Position numbers and translations under genes: made by a program. Under the pieces are notes generated by a model that ran no database searches, was not told the DNA's origin, and was given only the letters and a program-made list of their open reading frames with translations. A stretch of 11,304 nucleotides of DNA from Geosiphon pyriformis uo1 (taxonomy: Eukaryota > Fungi > Glomeromycota), in contig JAAOMT010000260.1 in the NCBI GenBank assembly GCA_016748015.1, positions 1 through 11,304 on the forward strand, written 5' to 3'. Of this stretch, positions 2,519 to 11,304 are shown piece after piece (position 1 is the first letter of the stretch; each line of letters opens with the position of its first letter).

Positions 2519-2863
2519 TTAAGCTAAATCAAAAATGCATTCTTTTCTCCACTACTCTCAATTGAGACCAGTTCTCCAGGTTTTACATCAGTGATAAATA
2601 CCCCATCATCCTCATTTAACGTCTCGTTTTCATTAATTCTTACTTTTCCATCAGTATTTGTTAGATGAAGATATAACCTTCTCATTTTATTATTCTCTCC
2701 TTGAACGGTATTTTTAACATTTTTACTAGGTTCTAAGATGTGGAATCATTTTCTTTTTTTACTAAGGCGTCGGTAGTGAGAGGCGCAATCAAATGAGCAA
2801 GAGAATTCTTTTTTTGACTATTAGAAAATGATTTTATAGTTTGAGCTTAAAAATGTTTGGTTT
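2519..2863 (-). pseudogene. Pirin / YhhW-like (RmlC-like cupin) gene remnant, C-terminal half only
   Basis: The minus strand reads, across frameshifts, KPNIFKLK..SFSNSQKKNSLAHLIAP..ILEPSKNVKNTVQGENNKMRRLYLHLTNTDGKVRINENETLNEDDGVFITDVKPGELVSIESSGEKNA..FDLA* (stop 2519-2521). This fits the pirin C-terminal cupin pattern (ILE.G..V, R..Y.H, IN....L..GDG.FI, terminal FDLA). It has internal deletions (IHQD segment and EFxL missing) and no N-terminal metal-binding half. Confidence 0.72.
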
Positions 2864-2885: not shown

Positions 2886-2975
2886 ATGAAATAACCATAT
2901 GAATATTCAGATTGATGAAATGACATACGAATATTCAGATTGATTAAATGACCATATGAATATTTATATTGATAA
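2886..2975. repeat. Degenerate 28-29 bp tandem repeat, 3 copies
   Basis: ATGAAATAACCATATGAATATTCAGATTG (2886-2914), ATGAAATGACATACGAATATTCAGATTG (2915-2942), ATTAAATGACCATATGAATATTTATATTG (2943-2971). Confidence 0.9.
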
Positions 2976-3000
2976 AAGATCCAGAACAGTCCTCAGATAA

Positions 3001-3098
3001 TGAGCGTGTTTTTTTTTGTGTTTCTATTTTGAACGTGTTTTTTTTGAGCCCACTATCTTGAAATTATCAATTCCCAAAGTCTCAATAACAACGCAATT
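3001..3098 (+). promoter_or_regulatory. Putative promoter/5'UTR of gene A, homologous to the upstream region of gene B
   Basis: It has two GARCGTGTTT motifs, then CTATCTTGAAATTATCAATTCCCAAAGTCTCAATAACAACGCAATT-ATG. The reverse complement of 8492-8570 reads CGTGTTT..GAGCGTG..CTATCTTGAAAAAATATCAATTCCAAAGTTTAATAACAACACAATT-ATG. The homology is seen directly; the regulatory role is inferred from position. Confidence 0.55.
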
Positions 3099-5483
3099 AT
3101 GGAAAACCTTTCTGATGAAAATAGTAAGTATCAAAGAAGAAAACTTTATTTGCAAGAGAGCTGAATATGTAACTCTTTATTCACACTTTTGACAGTTTTT
3201 ATCGAGTACTTTAAGAATACCTCTTCTGAACATTGGTCATATTGGGATTTCTTGCTAACCAACCAAGCTGAAATCATCACATCACCACCTTTTTCAGATC
3301 AATGGACTGGTCTTGATGGTGCTTGGCAAAGGCGTTTCTTTTGCAAGGCTAGAGAGATGTCGCAATTGGAGGATTCAAACTGGAAGGTTATTATGTTTTG
3401 TTTCTTTGGGTAGATGGGGAAATTAATTAGCACAAATATTAATCATTATGTTTCAATAATTATAGCTTCCAAAAAATAGCCAGCTATTTTCTTTTTGGGA
3501 TCACAGTATTCAGAGCCGCAAATCCGATGCAAGTGATCCCAAAAATTTCAGCCTAGAAAAACGTAGTGTTTTTAATGAGGTAAGTAAAATTAGGGCAGTG
3601 AAATAGTTTACATTATTGTACTATTTTTAATATAAGAAAATAGGAAAAGGAAATAAGACAAGATTTCGTAGCACAGAAAAAGGTACAAATATAAATTTTC
3701 TAAGCGTGTTATTTTAAATTACAACAGATTCTTTCAACCAATTTTTTTATTCATTGTTTGTTGGTTTGCAGTTAAAGACAAATGCTGATGGGGAAAAGAA
3801 ATCTCAAATGGATGATAACGATTTGTTTTCAAGACATAATAAAGAAGAAATAGTATTTAATTATTAGATTTTTCTTCTCTTAAGTCAAATTAGCCTGTTT
3901 TTATTAGCAATTTTTAAAATTTTCTTTGTTTTTTAGACACCCAATTCTTCTCCGACAAGAAAATATTCTACTTGTTTACCACAACTTTCACTACATTCAT
4001 CACTCCAAAAAATTGAAGACATTTCTGGTGATGAAGCAGATTTTGATTCAGCCACTTCAAGTATACAAGTTAACTGTCCTATCATTATTAATGATATAGT
4101 GGAGCTGCAATTAGGATCCTTGCCTTGTGAAAATTCTCGATGGTTCATAAACAATTTGGATATTTCTAAAAAATGGCATATATTTAAGGAGGAATCTTTG
4201 AAATTAGCAAATGATAGTGGTCTTTTTTTAGAAAGCCATGTTCAGCAAATACTGTATGTTTCAATCTTTTCATTTTGCAATTGGTCTATACTTTTACTTT
4301 TTATTGATTTCATTCTACTATTCCAAACTCTTCTTTAACTTTATATTATAGATCGTTATCACATATTTTTTTATTAAAGCCCAAACAACATTGTCCTTTA
4401 ATGGTCAAAATATTTGGTGCTGAATTATTGAATATGATGCACAAGGATGTTATGCAAAGGCTTACTAAGTGCAAAATAGAGTTTGAAGTTTTCTTAAAGA
4501 TTACTCCTATTATCAAGGTATGTTGTTTTTTTTGCCCTTATTTAATGTGAAAAAAAGAGAAAATAAATTGTATCTCTTTTTTGTTACAGTGCCTGCAAAG
4601 AGAAGAAATTACAAGAAAAAATGCAGTTTTAAAACTGCGAATGCTTGCAATCGACTGTGCCTATGGAGAGTGCGCTATTTTGCAGGCTATTGAAAACATG
4701 TAAGATTGGGCTAAACTGTGGAGAAAGAAAAGTCATTTAATAATATTAACACATTTTAATTAGTATTCAAAGAGTACCAGCAATGACATTAAAATCCCCT
4801 ATTGGAGAAGTAGAACTATGTACTACTTACATAGATCCAGTTCTTAGCCCAATTTTTGGGGATCCTGATCGTGATGTATTTTTGCGATGGTCCAATAAAG
4901 AGGCACCGGAATCCAAGAATAGAAAGTTAACAGGGAGGGCCAAGCAACCGGATGCCATCATTAGCGTCACTAATCAACTCTCTTGGGGCTCGAGCAGAGG
5001 ACATGGTGAGGTAAAAGTGCAAGGAAAAATGAATAATCTCTACAGCCTATGCACTGATCTTGTCCGAGTGGCTGTGTTCAATAAAGATGCTATTGATTTT
5101 TTTAACATGAATTGTATTCTCGGATTTCAAGTCGTTGGTAAGGTTTTTAACATTTGTTTTTTTTTATCAAAAGTCATACTAATAAGAGCTTAATAGGGCA
5201 ACATATCACATTTTACCTCACCACTCTCTTATATGATGGCATGTATGTTATGGTGGAGGTTGGTCATCTTAATGTGCCGATGTCACTTGAGGAGCTTCCG
5301 GCTTTTCTTACAAGTCTCGACACACTTCTCGTTGTCTCCAATGCATTTTGGAACAATTGTGCTATGTCCCGTCCTGCTGCAGAAATGGAGCCAAAAAAGC
5401 GTAGCACACTTGCAACACCAAATTTCAAAGAACTGGTCGCGAAAAGCCGTGATCGACATCGTTCTTGTGAATTACGATTTTGA
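3099..5483 (+). CDS. Gene A: 10-exon, 567-aa protein with N-terminal header domain and C-terminal PD-(D/E)XK REase-fold nuclease (Crinkler-like architecture)
   Basis: Exons 3099-3123, 3196-3386, 3466-3579, 3644-3682, 3772-3852, 3937-4253, 4352-4517, 4590-4699, 4764-5137 and 5197-5483 are all GT-AG bounded and phase-consistent, summing to 1704 nt with no internal stop. The protein starts MENLSDENIFIEYFKNT. Motifs: HVQQILSLSHIFLL, GEVELCTTYIDPVLSPIF, LRWSN, AKQPDAII, GHGEVK, DLVRV, LGFQVVG, so the PD...ExK catalytic set is present. The small exons 3-5 are the least certain. Confidence 0.85.
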
Positions 5484-5603
5484 AAATTTATCAAAGCACG
5501 AAAATAATATTTTATATTAACAAATGATCAATCTAACCAGGATAAACAAATCTCCTCAATAATGCTAAGTAAAACGGAGGCATTTCAACAATTTTAATTT
5601 CTA

Positions 5604-5642
5604 TAGTCTAATATGTATATTTGACATAAATATATTAGACTA
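5604..5642. repeat. Inverted repeat / hairpin with 11-bp perfect arms
   Basis: TAGTCTAATAT (5604-5614) pairs with ATATTAGACTA (5632-5642) around a partly self-complementary 17-nt spacer, about 120 nt after the gene A stop. Confidence 0.7.
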
Positions 5643-6403
5643 AATTTTTAATACATGTAAATGGAAAATGGCCAAACTTTGATTTTAAAACTTAGATGAT
5701 AAATTTGGGTTAACAAAGAGCAAATTAAATTTTAAATATTCATATCTTTGTGTTCGAATTATTGACTTTATCAAAGAATAAAAATATTATGAAATTTGAT
5801 CCATAGAGTTTTAATTTCAAATATTATAATCACCCAAAAGATTTTTAATAGCTATATATTAAAGCATAAAAAATTTAAACGAGAAATATTAACTGATAAG
5901 ATAAAATCTTTCAAATTTCACATAAAGGCTTATTTCTCCCATCCCTTTTAAATCACATAATTAAAATAAGATCAAATATTAAAGGGTGCGAAATTATTAA
6001 TACCGATAAAAGTAGGAATTTCTAAAATTTAAACTTTCAAATCAAGAGCTTAAATTAGGGCGCAAAAATCACGCTGAAGGAGTCAATCTAAGATTTAAGG
6101 TATCTTTAGAAATCCGAGAAAATTATCTGAACTTTGAATAAAAGGCGTGCATTGACATTCGCGAGAATATTACAACATAATGTTCATTTGTGTTTTTTGC
6201 CTCTTTTGAAAAGCGGTAATACAAAACGGAAATTGAATGAGGCTTATATCGGCAGGATTTGGACTGGGTGATTGTAATTAATTTGCAAGGAATCGTAATT
6301 TGCTTAATTCTATTTTCTTCATATATAAAAGAATTTAACTCCTAGGAGTACTCAAAGTTCTTAATTTTAATTGAGAATTTTGAATTGATTATATGCTAAT
6401 AAA

Positions 6404-7256
6404 ATGGCTCAAGCTCCACAAAGAAATAGATTTCTAGCGAATTGGAAATAATTACAACAACATGATAGGGGCCGGGACCTTTTGTCAGGTAAATTTTCCA
6501 TAATTTAATTTCAATTTGAAATTGAAATTAGAATCCAATGGCTTTAGTTTATTGGATAATAGGGACATTCATGTCTTTATTCGGTTCTTTATCATATGCT
6601 GAGGTTTGTTGAAACTAATCAAAACTTTGGTAAATACTTTCCTGAAATTAGCTAATTAATTATATTCTTTAGTTGGGACAGTAGTAGTGAAGTGATCTAT
6701 TTAAGAGAAAGCTTCAGGCACTTTTCAGTTATATGTTCAGTTTCTCTATGATTAGTGTAAGTCATTAAAACTCTATTATTCAAATCTACCCAATCAAGAA
6801 TCTAAGCATTATAGCTAGTGCCATACACAATATACGCGTTTACTGCTTATGATCTATGTGATAATATGCTGTCGATCAAATGGGCCAATCACTTATTTGT
6901 TTTAAAAGTTACAGTGGATGAATTAGACCCGGAGCCTATTATGTAAGAACAAATTTCGTTGAAGATTTCAATTTATTTAATTTGAGAGATCAGATATCTT
7001 AGTAAACAATTTACTTGCTGTACAATCTGTTTCAGGGCTGAACGAAATAATTGGTAGTCAATTGGCGTTCTCTGTTGGAGGCGAAAATGCAGCTTGGATA
7101 TTAGCGTTCTTTATCCCTTGTTTCGCTTTCGGTGCGCTAGCAGTCATGTTTTCTACAGGGGCACAAATCATTATAGCTGCGGCATATCGAGAATATATTC
7201 CTTTGTTTTTACCAATACTCAGGAAATGGAATATAAACATAAAAGATCAAAGATAA
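6404..7256 (+). pseudogene. APC-superfamily (LAT/MUP1-like) amino-acid permease pseudogene, internally deleted and 3'-truncated
   Basis: ATG 6404 reads MAQAPQRNRFL, then shifts frame into IGNNYNNMIGAGTF (TM1-like). 6538-6603 reads MALVYWIIGTFMSLFGSLSYAE, followed by intron 6604-6672 and LG..SEVIYLRESF..LFSYMFSFSMI (YAELG signature). About 7038-7240 reads LNEIIGSQLAFSVGGENAAWILAFFIPCFAFGALAVMFSTGAQIIIAAAYREYIPLFLPILRKWN. There are several frameshifts, the middle helices are largely missing and the last TM helices are absent. Confidence 0.8.
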
Positions 7257-7336
7257 AAAGATTTGCATAAAAAAAAAGGGAAAACTTGATAAGAAATTTC
7301 TACATCCTTGGGAGGCAATCATAAAAAGATTGTCCT

Positions 7337-8491
7337 TTAAGTGAAAAATTCAAATGGTATAACCCTTCTACGTAAACGCAGGGTGCTTGACCTTCTTGGG
7401 TTTCTGTGACGTGTCCAAAGTGTTGGAGATATATCCCATGGACGAAGAAGGAGGCGTTGATTTCCCTCAAGCGAAAAGCGCATCGATGACCGTGATAACT
7501 CTTCCAGGTTCTCCAGCGCTTGGTTTACCCACAACTGCATCAATACACTATATATTAGATTTAACGGCTTAAATAATTACTTATATAATAGAATTAATCA
7601 TCCTACCTTCAAGTACAGGAGAATGTGTATTGTATCTGGCATCCATAGCAGGTCTGCAGGAGATTGCGGAATCCAGAAAGTTGCAACTTGCTTAAAACGA
7701 TAAAGATGCTTATGTGGAATATCCATTGCATAGATATAGACTTTCCAGCCTAAAGATTTAAAGAAGTATCTGATTAGAACGAAGCCCCCAAAAAGAAACT
7801 CGTAATAAAACTTACCGAACACTTGAATTCCGAACACCTTCAGTTTCTGGAAGATATCACTGTTACCACGCTCACACCTCTTTGCCACAAGGTTGAGGAT
7901 ATCCTTAAGGCCTTTTTGTATCTTAATTTTATCATCACCGAAGTGCTCCAGGTCATTTTCATAAGGTGGCCCACTAACCTCGGACACTAATAACTCCTGA
8001 CCGAAGTGACTTCGTAAAGAGAGGATTGCATCTGTTCGCTGCTCAGGCCTCCGGCGTGTGTTAAATTCAACCTCCTGATTACGCCGAATTGAAGATGCCT
8101 CTAGGCCAATTTCACCCCATTTTACTTGATAATTTTCCTGGAGGTAATGACCTCGCCAAGAGGTTCTGCACCATTTATTAAAAAAACATAATGGCCTTCC
8201 ACTTTGAATCATCCCATTGTGGCATTTCTTTAGCCTTGAGAAAACAACGGTTTTGCCAAGCACCATTGAGACCGGCCCATTCATCTGACCAAAGTGGCAG
8301 TGTGGTAATTACAGCCTCATTGGATCGTAAGAAATGCAAATAGGACCATTTTTTAAAAGGGGTTTTCTTAAAATACTGGTTAAGAACTATCATAAGTGCC
8401 AATAGAGAGGTATTAATACAGTTATTTCTCTTGCAAAATAAGGTTTTCTTCTTTGACACTTACTATTTTTGCCAGGAAAGTTGTCAGTCAT
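7337..8491 (-). pseudogene. Gene B: header shared with gene A joined to a different (EVSG-type) REase-fold domain; probably disrupted
   Basis: ATG 8491; exon 8491-8464 (MTDNFPGKN); intron 8463-8387; exon 8386-8196 (191 nt). The donor then reads GC instead of GT. The REase part reads YQVKWGEIGLEASSIRRN..QRTDAIL..ELLVSEVSGPP..DKIKIQKGLKDIL..VFGIQVFG to 7816, then intron 7815-7750, exon 7749-7607, intron 7606-7535 and a last exon LWVNQALENLEELSRS. A probable 1-nt deletion near 7462 shifts off a natural-looking tail KSTPPSSSMGYISNTLDTSQKPKKVKHPAFT* (stop 7368-7370). As assembled, the frame stops at 7337. Confidence 0.72.
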
Positions 8492-8570
8492 AATTGTGTT
8501 GTTATTAAACTTTGGAATTGATATTTTTTCAAGATAGAGTGGACAAAACGCACGCTCAAATAAACACGAT
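8183..8570 (-). repeat. Inverted, diverged copy of 3001-3399 (promoter to start of intron 2)
   Basis: Upstream motifs, exon 1, intron 1, exon 2 (hand count 145/191 nt identical, no indels) and the first ~13 nt of intron 2 (GTTATTATGTTTT vs GCCATTATGTTTT) align. Similarity then stops abruptly. Confidence 0.92.
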
Positions 8571-8586
8571 AAAAAAAACCAATTAA

Positions 8587-8651
8587 AAAACCTGCGATAG
8601 ATTGGATAGATTGGATAGATTGGGTAAAACCTGCAATAGGGTAAAAACCTG
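8587..8651. repeat. Short tandem repeats upstream of gene B: (GATAGATTG)x3 and AAAACCTG x3
   Basis: GATAGATTG occurs at 8596-8604, 8605-8613 and 8614-8622, reading CCAATCTAT on the gene B strand. AAAACCTG occurs near 8587, 8626 and 8644. Confidence 0.85.
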
Positions 8652-8883
8652 TAAACCCCGTGATTGTATCAAGTGAAATCTGCGATAAATAGACATTTTT
8701 TAAGAACAATGGCACCTTTTGAGAGCAGACCCAATTGAAAGTACTGTAAAGTTGACCAAACGAAGTAACGCAACTTTGAATGGAAAATTCAAACAAGTAA
8801 TACTTTTATTATTGAAACAGGTAAGTTTAAAAATAGAGATCCTTCTTTATTACATATAGCGATCAGTTTTTATTGCAAAAAAC

Positions 8884-10502
8884 TTAAATCTTTCCATAGA
8901 TGACAAAATCCATTGTATAACCACTTTTAGGAGGAGGACGCGAACTTCCAATTGCCATTGCCCTTGCTTTGTAGGTTTTTTGCAGCCCATCGTACTGATA
9001 CCAGCCAGAATTTTTAACATTTTCGAACGAACATCGGCAATATGATCGATGCCGCTACAAAAAGAAACTCCCATCAGGCGATATCTATATTAAAAAATTA
9101 ATAAATAAAGACAGTAAGTGATAAACTTAATTCAAATTTACCTTTGTTTTGTAATTTGATTTCCTTTAGGAAAATTGATTTCTTCTGGTAAATCTTTGTT
9201 CTGAAGAGACGTCTTTTCATTAATAGTGCTAATTCCCGTAACATTGATAACAAGGATCAGAGGCAGTCGCTGGTCGATTTGTCTTTTTGATACAGTATCA
9301 CCTGTGCATCGATAAAAATACCTAAAAAAAGGTTAGAATGCAAAGCGAATAAGAGGAAAAAATATAGACACTTTACTCAAGCTTTCCAGTCTCCAATGAT
9401 ACGCATTTTTTAGTCATATAAGCATTTGTGGGAACGTTTTTTGGAGCCTCTCCATCTGTCGATTTAAATTCTAATCCGCATGCAATAACAAGTGTTCAAG
9501 GCAAGACTCAAAATAATCATTTCCTGATAATACCGGAACATGCGGTTTTCTACAAATTAAATTATGTGCATTAATATAAATATATCGACTGTAGCAAATG
9601 AAAAAAATAAGCAAAAATGTCGCGTAAAATAAAAGATATATAATGAACTTACATTAGAGTAATATCGAAACAATTCACTGCGAATAAGACTTTCTTTGGG
9701 CAGTTGTCAGAGCTGCACGTGGTCGTTATTGTACTTTTGACAACAAGAAGATTCTGGTCCAAGGAGTCATGAAAAAACTGTTCAAAAATCGTTCCGAAAG
9801 CCCTCCGAATAAATCCAACTGTTCTTCTTTCATTAAATTCGCAATCCAAAGAATCTTGGCTTCAATCCATCGTTTCTGTTTCATGAGCTCAAAAACGCGA
9901 AGAAGACGAATTGTTTGCGAAGTTGGTTTAATTTCAGCGAAATAAACGGCTTGTTTATAAATATTTTGGCTGCCGAAGGCGCTTTGAATTAAGGTTAGAC
10001 TTGTATCCACTGGACACGTGGAAATTAAGCGCAAACCTCCATGATTTCCACCATATGGCATCGTATGAACAATCGAATTGCCATAAGAATCTTTGTCTAC
10101 TGGAGCTGACTGCATAGAGACGACTTGCTTCTTCAATTATTGAGTTATAAATTTATTATTGGAGAAGAAAGATCATAAAAAAAGCAGTCATATTACCTTC
10201 AATTTTTTTTAATGGCTCATCAGCTAATTGAAGAGTGTTGCTCAGTATTACCATCTTCAAAGGTAATATCTACAATTATTTTGCCATCGCCAATAACCTC
10301 AGCGATCTGTGCTTTGTAATAAGGTCTGTCTAAAACTGTATCCTGAAGCTGAATGGATTCTTGTTGTATTAATCGGGTTTTCCTTTTATTTTTAGGACCT
10401 CTCTTTTAGGGTAATCTAAGCTCGTTTTCAGCGCGGCCATTAGCATCCCTCTGACGAAGATAAGACTCGAGAGAACTGGTTGTAGATGATTCGGCGGCAG
10501 AC
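8884..10502 (-). pseudogene. Gene C: multi-exon pseudogene with basic/AT-hook-like motif, Tudor-like domain and USP-like (peptidase C19-type fold) cysteine peptidase
   Basis: Exon ~10502-10197 reads LP*KRGPKNKRK (TAA 10406-10408) and RPYYKAQIAEVIGDGKIIVDITFEDGNTE. Exon ~10130-9653 reads PYGG..LISTCPVDTSLTLIQ (Cys box) and TTCSSDNCP. Later exons read ACG..RCTG..KRQIDQRLPLILVINV..LPEEINF, then YRLMGVSFCSGIDHIADVR/ENVKNSGWYQYDG..MDFVIYGKI* (stop 8884-8886). Frameshifts lie near 10235, 9786, 9490 and 9025. The 5' exons were not resolved. Confidence 0.75.
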
Positions 10503-10746: not shown

Positions 10747-11304
10747 CAACCAACTGTGAAAGAGAGGATGAAATCACCACTCTCGGCACTCAATTACCGG
10801 TAGAGATCGTTCACAAAGTCCATTCAAAAATGAATGGTACGAAAAAAGAGGTATATTCCACCCTCTCTCCCCTCCTGGGGTAAGGTAGAAACCTAGCCAA
10901 AAGATTCCGTACCACTTGCAAAAGAAATGAAACACCCAATGCAACCACTGTGAAAGAGAGGATGAAATCACCACTCTCGACACTCAATTACCGGTAGAGA
11001 TCGTTCACAAAGTCCATTCAAAAATGAATGGTACGAAAAAAGAGGTATATTCCACCCTCTCTCCCCTCCTGGGGTAAGGTAGAAACCTAGCCAAAAGATT
11101 CCGTACCACTTGCAAAAGAAATGAAACACCCAATGCAACCACTGTGAAAGAGAGGATGAAATCACCACTCTCGACACTCAATTACCGGTAGAGATCGTTC
11201 ACAAAGTCCATTCAAAAATGAATGGTACGAAAAAAGAGGTATATTCCACCCTCTCTCCCCTCCTGGGGTAAGGTAGAAACCTATCCAAAAGATTCCGTAC
11301 CACT
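10747..11304. repeat. 194-bp tandem repeat array, ~2.9 units, continues beyond the window
   Basis: ACTGTGAAAGAGAGG starts at 10753, 10947 and 11141 (period 194). The only substitutions seen are G10786 (A in the other units) and T11284 (G in the other units). It is more GC-rich than the flanking DNA. Confidence 0.97.

What the first reader, a model, noticed from the sequence alone, without database searches (positions are those of the whole stretch)
3001..8570. Candidate modular nuclease-effector system: one promoter+header cassette coupled to two different REase-fold C-termini
Seen: genes A (+) and B (-) share upstream motifs, a tiny exon 1, intron 1 and an equal-length 191-nt exon 2. Exon 2 encodes a Trp-rich 64-aa domain (YFKxT..WSY..FL..N.A.I.T.P..SD.W.GL.GAWQ.R.F.KA.EM; 35/64 aa identical by hand count). 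Homology ends ~13 nt into intron 2. The nuclease domains are barely alignable and of different types: A has QPDA...GEVK, B has RTDA...EVSGPP. Known: Crinkler/CR effectors combine conserved N-terminal headers with shuffled C-terminal toxin domains, often REase folds. This header lacks the ubiquitin-like LxLFLAK motif of classical Crinklers. Inference: this is a possibly undescribed header family whose expression+header module is swapped onto different nucleases through phase-0 intron 2, like a eukaryotic polymorphic toxin or selfish nuclease system.
Basis: partly seen in the sequence, partly recalled or inferred. Interest (0 to 1): 0.8.

Follow-up and report, generated by a model that had tools for sequence, protein, structure and literature searches.

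The report
Shuffled helical header on fungal nucleases
A mycorrhizal-type fungus carries an intact gene joining a small helical front domain, found on many unrelated predicted nuclease tails across related fungi, to a predicted DNA-cutting enzyme that is likely used in genetic conflict, while its apparent partner gene is a broken chimera rather than a clean swap.

Summary
Genes A (+) and B (-) share an upstream block, exon 1, intron 1 and a 191-nt exon 2 (35/64 aa identical). A is an intact 10-exon, 567-aa gene: all-helical header, linker, predicted PD-(D/E)xK nuclease. The header is a family (99 clusters at 50% identity) in Glomeromycota and Endogonales, with no Pfam or PDB match, not ubiquitin-like. 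It sits on 12-17 groups of C-termini, and tree tests reject congruence in both directions, so family-level shuffling is supported. B is not a clean swap: GC instead of GT after exon 2, a join in mid-exon that loses the first catalytic helix, and a frameshift. Shared sequence usually runs past intron 2 into exon 3, so intron 2 is not the general breakpoint. Unexpected: intron 2 of header genes holds conserved, often tandemly duplicated non-coding elements. B breaks inside one, and the window's 194-bp array is the same element. Verdict: new variant of Crinkler/CR-type header-nuclease effectors. Function is inferred, and Zhang 2016's helical headers could not be checked.

The parts
3005..3098 (+). 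Upstream block shared by A and B (promoter-like, untested)
   Evidence: 72/87 nt identical to 8492-8580(-)
3099..5483 (+). Gene A: intact, 10 exons, 567 aa; header, coiled coil/linker, helical module, REase-fold domain
   Evidence: All introns GT-AG, no internal stop; collinear with paralogue P0001; spliced contigs of a paralogue join the same exon ends
3099..3123 (+). A exon 1 (25 nt, phase 1)
3196..3386 (+). A exon 2: core of the helical header
3387..3465 (+). A intron 2 (79 nt, phase 0, GT donor); lacks the full element seen in relatives
   Evidence: (score 20 vs the 194-bp unit)
3466..3579 (+). A exon 3 with the family FW helix, still part of the conserved N-terminal module
4764..5137 (+). 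A exon 9: REase core with predicted catalytic E (4807-4809), D (4951-4953), E-x-K (5008-5016)
   Evidence: Conserved 24/25, 24/24, 21/23, 20/23 in non-gap rows of a 27-row alignment; fold matches; positions
8492..8580 (-). B upstream block
8464..8491 (-). B exon 1 (28 nt)
8196..8386 (-). B exon 2 (header), followed by GC instead of GT and a stop at 8180-8178 in the header frame
8142..8186 (-). 45-nt remnant of the intron-2 element; B's junction lies at its end
   Evidence: Score 38 vs the 194-bp unit, 0 of 2000 shuffles as high, best other window hit 26; a paralogous contig stops matching at 8142 (record 5)
7368..8140 (-). B nuclease remainder: begins mid-exon, lacks the first catalytic helix, frameshift near 7462
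   Evidence: 93/108, 40/47, 21/26, 23/29 aa identical to Jimgerdemannia P0147/P0148
10753..11304 (-). Tandem array of a 194-bp unit homologous to the intron-2 element of header genes; runs off the contig end
   Evidence: score 125-126 vs L001-L003 intron 2, shuffle maxima 72-85

Best explanation
Gene A is an intact gene for a likely unsecreted Crinkler/CR-type protein, in which an all-helical header, a coiled coil and a disordered linker lead to a predicted PD-(D/E)xK DNase that likely acts in genetic conflict inside the fungus's shared cytoplasm, and gene B is a broken chimera likely made by one illegitimate join. Shown: the header is a family found on many different C-termini, and close relatives of both nucleases carry other headers. 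Inferred: new combinations arise by ectopic recombination among dispersed paralogues, mostly in the linker behind exon 3-4. Inferred (about 45% on its own): the nuclease enters nuclei and cuts the DNA of rival nuclei or invaders, with the header as an interaction domain for targeting or control. Inferred: B arose when the 5' end of a header gene was joined, inside its intron-2 element, to the middle of an exon of another nuclease gene, and it then decayed.
For: A: clean 10-exon frame, catalytic residues conserved, model residues 360-532 match HsdR, BpuSI and DrdV nuclease domains at Z 8.0-8.5. A paralogue is spliced at the same sites. Header: 104 hits, 99 after dropping 5 repeat proteins; confident all-alpha model, pLDDT 91. 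The 31 long members fall into 17 (E<1e-10) or 12 (E<1e-5) C-terminal groups, including AAA-ATPase (Pfam E 2e-39) and SAM. Three architectures are seen directly in DNA: window A, L003 (SAM plus P-loop-like word), L004 (another REase group). AU tests reject congruence both ways, p 5e-7 and 4e-71. Nuclease cores 72-76% identical to P0001 carry unrelated N-termini. No hydrophobic N-terminal stretch in 10 of 10 tested. B lesions. Its junction is spanned without differences by one contig. Paralogues differ mostly by C>T/G>A, 237/238 vs 39/58 for the reverse changes, as expected for methylated repeats.
Against: No activity, localisation or target was tested. Z of about 8 is modest, and two mitoribosomal chains tie at the top. 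Most architectures rest on automated gene models, which can be false fusions; P0002 from this very contig is one. The header tree has 67 columns, 20 of 33 forks open and unsettled bootstraps. In 6 of 23 pairs similarity does stop near the exon-2 end. The transcript evidence is for a paralogue, from a run labelled 'DNA?', not for A itself. A distant header relative occurs on a B-type nuclease (P0152, HHalign 83%), so B could be an internal deletion rather than a fusion.
Confidence: 0.65

Rival explanations
1. One reading: B is a working gene made by swapping the promoter+header cassette onto another nuclease through intron 2.
For: Homology with A ends just inside intron 2. A 58-nt GC-AG intron would put header and nuclease in frame. 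The junction is real DNA.
Against: That AG lies in a codon of the parent's coding exon (QEKY). The product would lack about 226 residues including the first catalytic Glu helix, and the last exon is frameshifted. Family similarity usually runs past intron 2.
Confidence: 0.06
2. The genes are self-mobilising elements: the nuclease serves their own spread, and the header binds the conserved intron-2 repeats as a cis site.
For: Many decaying paralogues with C>T/G>A bias; an A-like and B-like pair lies convergently at a second locus (record 2). B's nuclease is 84-86% identical to Endogonales proteins. The intron element is shared across subphyla and forms tandem arrays. CR domains are traced to transposons (PMC5289972 section 11).
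Against: No terminal repeats or target duplications around A or B. Many introns. No clear DNA-binding fold match for the header (best Z 4.9; inconclusive).
Confidence: 0.2
3. The proteins are effectors exported to a symbiotic partner, like RiCRN1.
For: AM fungi have CR proteins with REase domains that act in plant nuclei (PMC6131194 passages). The family is confined, among 27 named members looked up, to symbiotic-type Glomeromycota and Endogonales.
Against: No Ubl/LxLFLAK header (no Crinkler Pfam hit) and no hydrophobic leader (crude test).
Confidence: 0.13
4. On B's history only: B is an internal deletion of a once-intact header + B-type nuclease gene, so an earlier clean swap did occur.
For: A short word (CCAGGA) is shared by the element and the nuclease exon at the junction. 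P0152 joins a distant header relative to a B-type nuclease.
Against: The closest intact relative, P0147, carries a different header.
Confidence: 0.35

Closest known systems
CR (Crinkler-RHS-type) effectors with header + REase or NTPase+REase (Zhang et al. 2016, seen only through PMC5289972 section 11 and PMC6131194 passages)
   Same: N-terminal header on varied enzymatic C-termini; REase and NTPase+REase tails; repeat-rich setting; helical headers are said to exist.
   Different: This header has no Pfam or PDB match and is not Ubl. It could not be compared with Zhang's helical headers. Conserved intron-2 elements were not mentioned in the passages read.
Classical CRN / RiCRN1 (Pfam PF20147 Ubl header)
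   Same: Modular build; REase C-terminus; occurs in AM fungi.
   Different: No LxLFLAK/LxLWKV, no beta-grasp fold, no signal-like leader.
Type I/IIG restriction endonuclease domains (HsdR 3h1t, BpuSI 3s1s, DrdV 7lo5), Uma2-like TT1808 (1wdj)
   Same: Predicted fold of A's catalytic domain, Z 7.0-8.5, rmsd 3.8-4.5 over 121-143 residues.
   Different: 10-14% identity; no methyltransferase partner; eukaryotic intron-rich gene.
Selfish REase toxins Medea1 and CifB (PMC11342252 passages); Spok (recalled)
   Same: REase-fold domains related to CR effectors used in genetic conflict.
   Different: No antidote gene or resistance domain identified for A; drive not testable here.

Membership tests
CR effectors (broad sense) | N-terminal header joined to a C-terminal enzymatic toxin-type domain | tested here: met
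CR effectors (broad sense) | Same header on varied C-termini, including NTPase+REase | tested here: met
CR effectors (broad sense) | REase fold with catalytic E, D, ExK | tested here: met
   A: (modest Z). B lacks the first E helix.
CR effectors (broad sense) | Nuclease belongs to a numbered CR-REase clade; header matches a described helical CR header | not testable with these tools
   Zhang 2016 and its alignments not held
CR effectors (broad sense) | Toxicity or DNase activity | not testable with these tools
   needs bench work
Classical Crinkler (PF20147) | Ubiquitin-like header with LxLFLAK-type motif | tested here: not met
   Model has six helices and no strand at pLDDT 91; no Crinkler Pfam hit in 70 of 70 rows
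Classical Crinkler (PF20147) | Signal-like hydrophobic leader | tested here: not met
   Best 11-residue hydropathy at most 1.22 in 10 of 10 N-termini; crude, no SignalP
Classical Crinkler (PF20147) | Translocation into a host cell | not testable with these tools
   needs bench work
Polymorphic toxin system | C-terminal replacement at a fixed junction | tested here: not met
   Similarity ends at varied places, past intron 2 in 17 of 23 pairs; B joins in mid-exon
Polymorphic toxin system | Linked immunity gene | tested here: inconclusive
   None recognised in the window; no genome held
Known helical folds (FF, HTH, SAM, LisH) | Structural match to the header | tested here: inconclusive
   Best Z 4.9, FF domains 3.7-4.2; Foldseek best E 0.54
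Rfam RNA families | Match to the intron-2 element | tested here: inconclusive
   No hit over the element up to E 5

The most novel reading that the evidence does not exclude
The header family is an undescribed toxin-antidote switch built into single genes. The conserved, tandem-prone element in intron 2 controls splicing or an internal start, so one locus makes either the full nuclease or a short header-only protein that protects its own nucleus. The same element is a breakage-prone site that helps spread these genes, also between Endogonales and Glomeromycota. That would be a nucleus-against-nucleus conflict system in coenocytic mycorrhizal fungi.
Probability: 0.13. Interest if true: 0.85.

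Novelty: new variant of a known kind. Interest (0 to 1): 0.5.

Why it matters
Orphan, methylated multicopy genes make up much of AM fungal gene sets, and their origin is open (bioRxiv 10.1101/2021.03.30.436303, passages). This work gives one such group an anatomy: a defined, foldable header, intact catalytic nucleases, and shuffling shown in both directions. An intact gene (A) is ready for assay. If these are conflict nucleases acting among nuclei in a shared cytoplasm, they offer a testable handle on nuclear competition and incompatibility in fungi that cannot be crossed. The intron-2 elements, about as conserved as the header protein, point to a regulatory or recombinational site nobody would find from protein searches.

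Tried and rejected
No whole genome held, so copy number in the genome was not counted. Pfam: no hit for header or either nuclease. PDB sequence search with the header alignment: one row at E 1.8. Foldseek: nothing at E<=0.001 for header or full model. VIA-align for header: no Z>=5; this does not show a new fold. ESM Atlas: only low-score leads, best 0.85 for B's exon 2 and 0.79 for P0137 1-100, two unnamed Mucoromycota clusters. Viral contigs: 0 of 42 candidates. Complex prediction for a header homodimer: no verdict. No RNA holder listed. A closer view of read contigs at B's junction was not obtained, so the header of the full-length B paralogue stays unknown. Idea that the 194-bp unit is a protein-coding gene on the opposite strand: rejected, because matching blocks fall in different frames among copies. 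Idea that the header is a stand-alone small gene: rejected by L003/L004, which continue into exon 3. The L004 intron did not align with the window-type element above shuffles, so the two element types are kept apart. RNA structure of the element: z -3.3 for the window unit but -1.3 for L003, so not claimed. Weak tblastn rows (11 hits vs 2-9 in shuffles) were ignored; only those with E<=2e-4 were used. Only 1 of 11 other header groups (P0152) aligned well to this header, so one superfamily of all these headers is not claimed. L006-L008 are short weak matches and were not used. Four look-ups in earlier scan findings returned nothing. Literature searches (listings only) showed no description of this header. 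Zhang 2016 and its supplements were not seen and may describe it.
Full report
1. Source. The window encodes, exon for exon, the automated model P0002, annotated as Geosiphon pyriformis on a contig of 11,304 bases. No whole genome was held.

2. Observation. A and B share a 407-nt inverted homology (76%, E 2e-73). It covers an upstream block (72/87), exon 1, intron 1 (59/72) and a 191-nt exon 2 (145/191 nt; 35/64 aa counting the split codon). Exon 2 has dN/dS about 0.56 and is less conserved than intron 1. A is clean: ten exons at 3099-5483, all GT-AG, 567 aa, no stop, collinear with paralogue P0001. Contigs of run X2 join the same exon ends (4251 to 4352, start at 3196) but carry 20 differences in 189 nt, so they come from a paralogue.

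3. The nuclease of A. The family has 38 hits across Glomeromycota, Endogonales and Mucorales; 27 were aligned. The model is confident from about residue 210 to 535 and disordered in the linker. Residues 360-532 match HsdR (Z 8.5, rmsd 4.5, 131 aligned), BpuSI (8.5, 4.0, 143), DrdV (8.0, 3.9, 136) and TT1808 (7.0). Two mitoribosomal chains tie at the top, and Z near 8 is modest. E, D, E and K of the motif are kept in 24/25, 24/24, 21/23 and 20/23 non-gap rows. A-type and B-type nucleases are distant homologues with the same build (HHalign 92.7%).

4. B is broken. After exon 2 it has GC, then a stop in the header frame. Similarity to intact relatives starts at 8140, inside a coding exon; residues 1-226 of P0041 are absent, including the helix that aligns with A's first catalytic Glu. 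The last exon is frameshifted near 7462. One contig of run X1 spans the junction without differences, and a paralogous contig stops matching at 8142; X1 may be the assembly's own sample. The closest intact relative, P0147, has a different header. A more distant one, P0152, has a remote version of this header (HHalign 83%). Fusion and internal deletion therefore both remain possible.

5. The header is a family. A four-sequence profile found 104 representatives; 5 were low-complexity repeats and were dropped, leaving 99. Of 28 looked up, 27 are named, all Glomeromycota or Endogonales. The 100-residue model has six helices and no strand, pLDDT 91, pTM 0.81. It has no Pfam hit and no clear fold match. 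The module includes exon 3: an FW-type helix is found in 36 of 65 models long enough to test, and 44 of 100 show a KV-type word at the exon-2 end, as read-through of a shared phase-0 donor would give.

6. Shuffling. The 31 members with long tails form 17 groups at E<1e-10 and 12 at E<1e-5. Two singletons (P0108, P0121) show no nuclease and were left out of the tree. Tails include several REase groups, AAA-ATPase (PF09820) and SAM-containing forms. Three builds are seen in DNA: A, L003 (SAM, then a P-loop-like word at the contig end) and L004. On the header tree (36 rows, weakly resolved) the four A-type carriers are rejected as a clade (p-AU 5e-7). On the nuclease tree (22 rows) the three header carriers are rejected too (p-AU 4e-71). 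Both used the non-mixture model. Cores 72-76% identical to P0001 have unrelated N-termini. Among 23 non-independent pairs with similar headers and different tails, similarity runs 25 or more residues past exon 2 in 17 and stops near it in 6 (hand count). Intron 2 is thus not the general swap point. Caveat: most builds rest on automated models.

7. The intron-2 element. B's junction holds 45 nt that match the 194-bp tandem unit at 10753-11304 (0 of 2000 shuffles as high). The same element fills intron 2 of L001-L003, which are near-identical to each other (score 125-126 vs shuffle maxima 72-85). It appears as read-through in P0003, P0044, P0046 and P0106. Frames shift between copies, so it is non-coding. 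A's intron 2 lacks it. A second element type shows as read-through in 16 of 75 models against 0.9 in shuffles; the motif was chosen after seeing the data. In 8 hand-picked pairs its read-through is 39-74% identical where headers are 33-62%. Tandem duplication recurs in L001, L004 and the window. Its role is unknown. For the window type, recent horizontal spread could explain the conservation, since B's nuclease is 84-86% identical to Jimgerdemannia proteins; that search saw only 60 candidates.

8. Mechanism. Shown: architecture, intact motif in A, shuffling, lesions in B. Inferred: recombination among dispersed paralogues in the linker; a nuclear DNase role in conflict with rival nuclei or invaders, given no leader peptide and a basic C-terminal tail; host silencing by methylation, from the C>T/G>A bias among paralogues. 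I put the whole at 0.65 and the functional step alone at about 0.45. Rivals are self-mobility (0.2), export to a partner (0.13) and a working swapped B (0.06).

9. Known systems. It works like a CR effector in the broad sense. PMC5289972 (section 11 read whole, other passages) reports header plus REase or NTPase+REase builds and unrelated helical headers. It is not a classical Crinkler: no Ubl fold or LxLFLAK-type motif (PMC6131194, passages). PMC11342252 (passages) links CR-type REases to Medea1 and CifB. PMC12957317 and bioRxiv 10.1101/2021.03.30.436303 were seen as passages. Spok and the USP and permease labels are recalled. Zhang et al. 2016 was not held; its text and supplements may already list this header.

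10. Verdict. New variant of a known kind; interest 0.5. The family-level claim stands, the B-specific mechanism does not, and the intron-2 element is the most surprising lead.

Noticed in passing
window 10753-11304: 194-bp tandem array (99% identical units) that is the intron-2 element of header genes, here upstream of gene C and in the same orientation; the contig ends inside it.
   Followed up: partly
window 3439-7998, run X1 record 2: A second locus holds A-like and B-like nuclease sequences in the same convergent layout (about 83-87% identical), so the pair is part of a repeated segment.
   Followed up: no
window 7368-8140 (-): B's nuclease is 84-86% identical to Jimgerdemannia proteins, high for two subphyla; possible horizontal transfer.
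   Followed up: partly
window 8880-10500 (-): Broken gene C with a weak Tudor-like exon (Pfam E 0.065) and Cys- and His-box-like words resembling USP peptidases (recalled); wrongly fused to B in model P0002.
   Followed up: no
window 6400-7260 (+): Decayed pieces resembling an amino-acid permease (motifs recalled; no Pfam hit) between A and B.
   Followed up: partly
window 2527-2745 (-): Pirin/quercetinase C-terminal fragment (Pfam Pirin_C_2, E 0.0025).
   Followed up: no
window 8587-9000: High-copy repeat directly upstream of B (summed contig depth 2200-4500 against about 200 nearby), with short tandem words.
   Followed up: no
window 2886-2977: Three degenerate 28-29 nt repeats directly upstream of A's shared block.
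   Followed up: no
P0006, P0007, P0034: Genes with other headers also show repeated read-through sequence just behind the header, hinting at similar intronic elements in unrelated header families.
   Followed up: no
P0049: Carries two copies of the header in one model.
   Followed up: no
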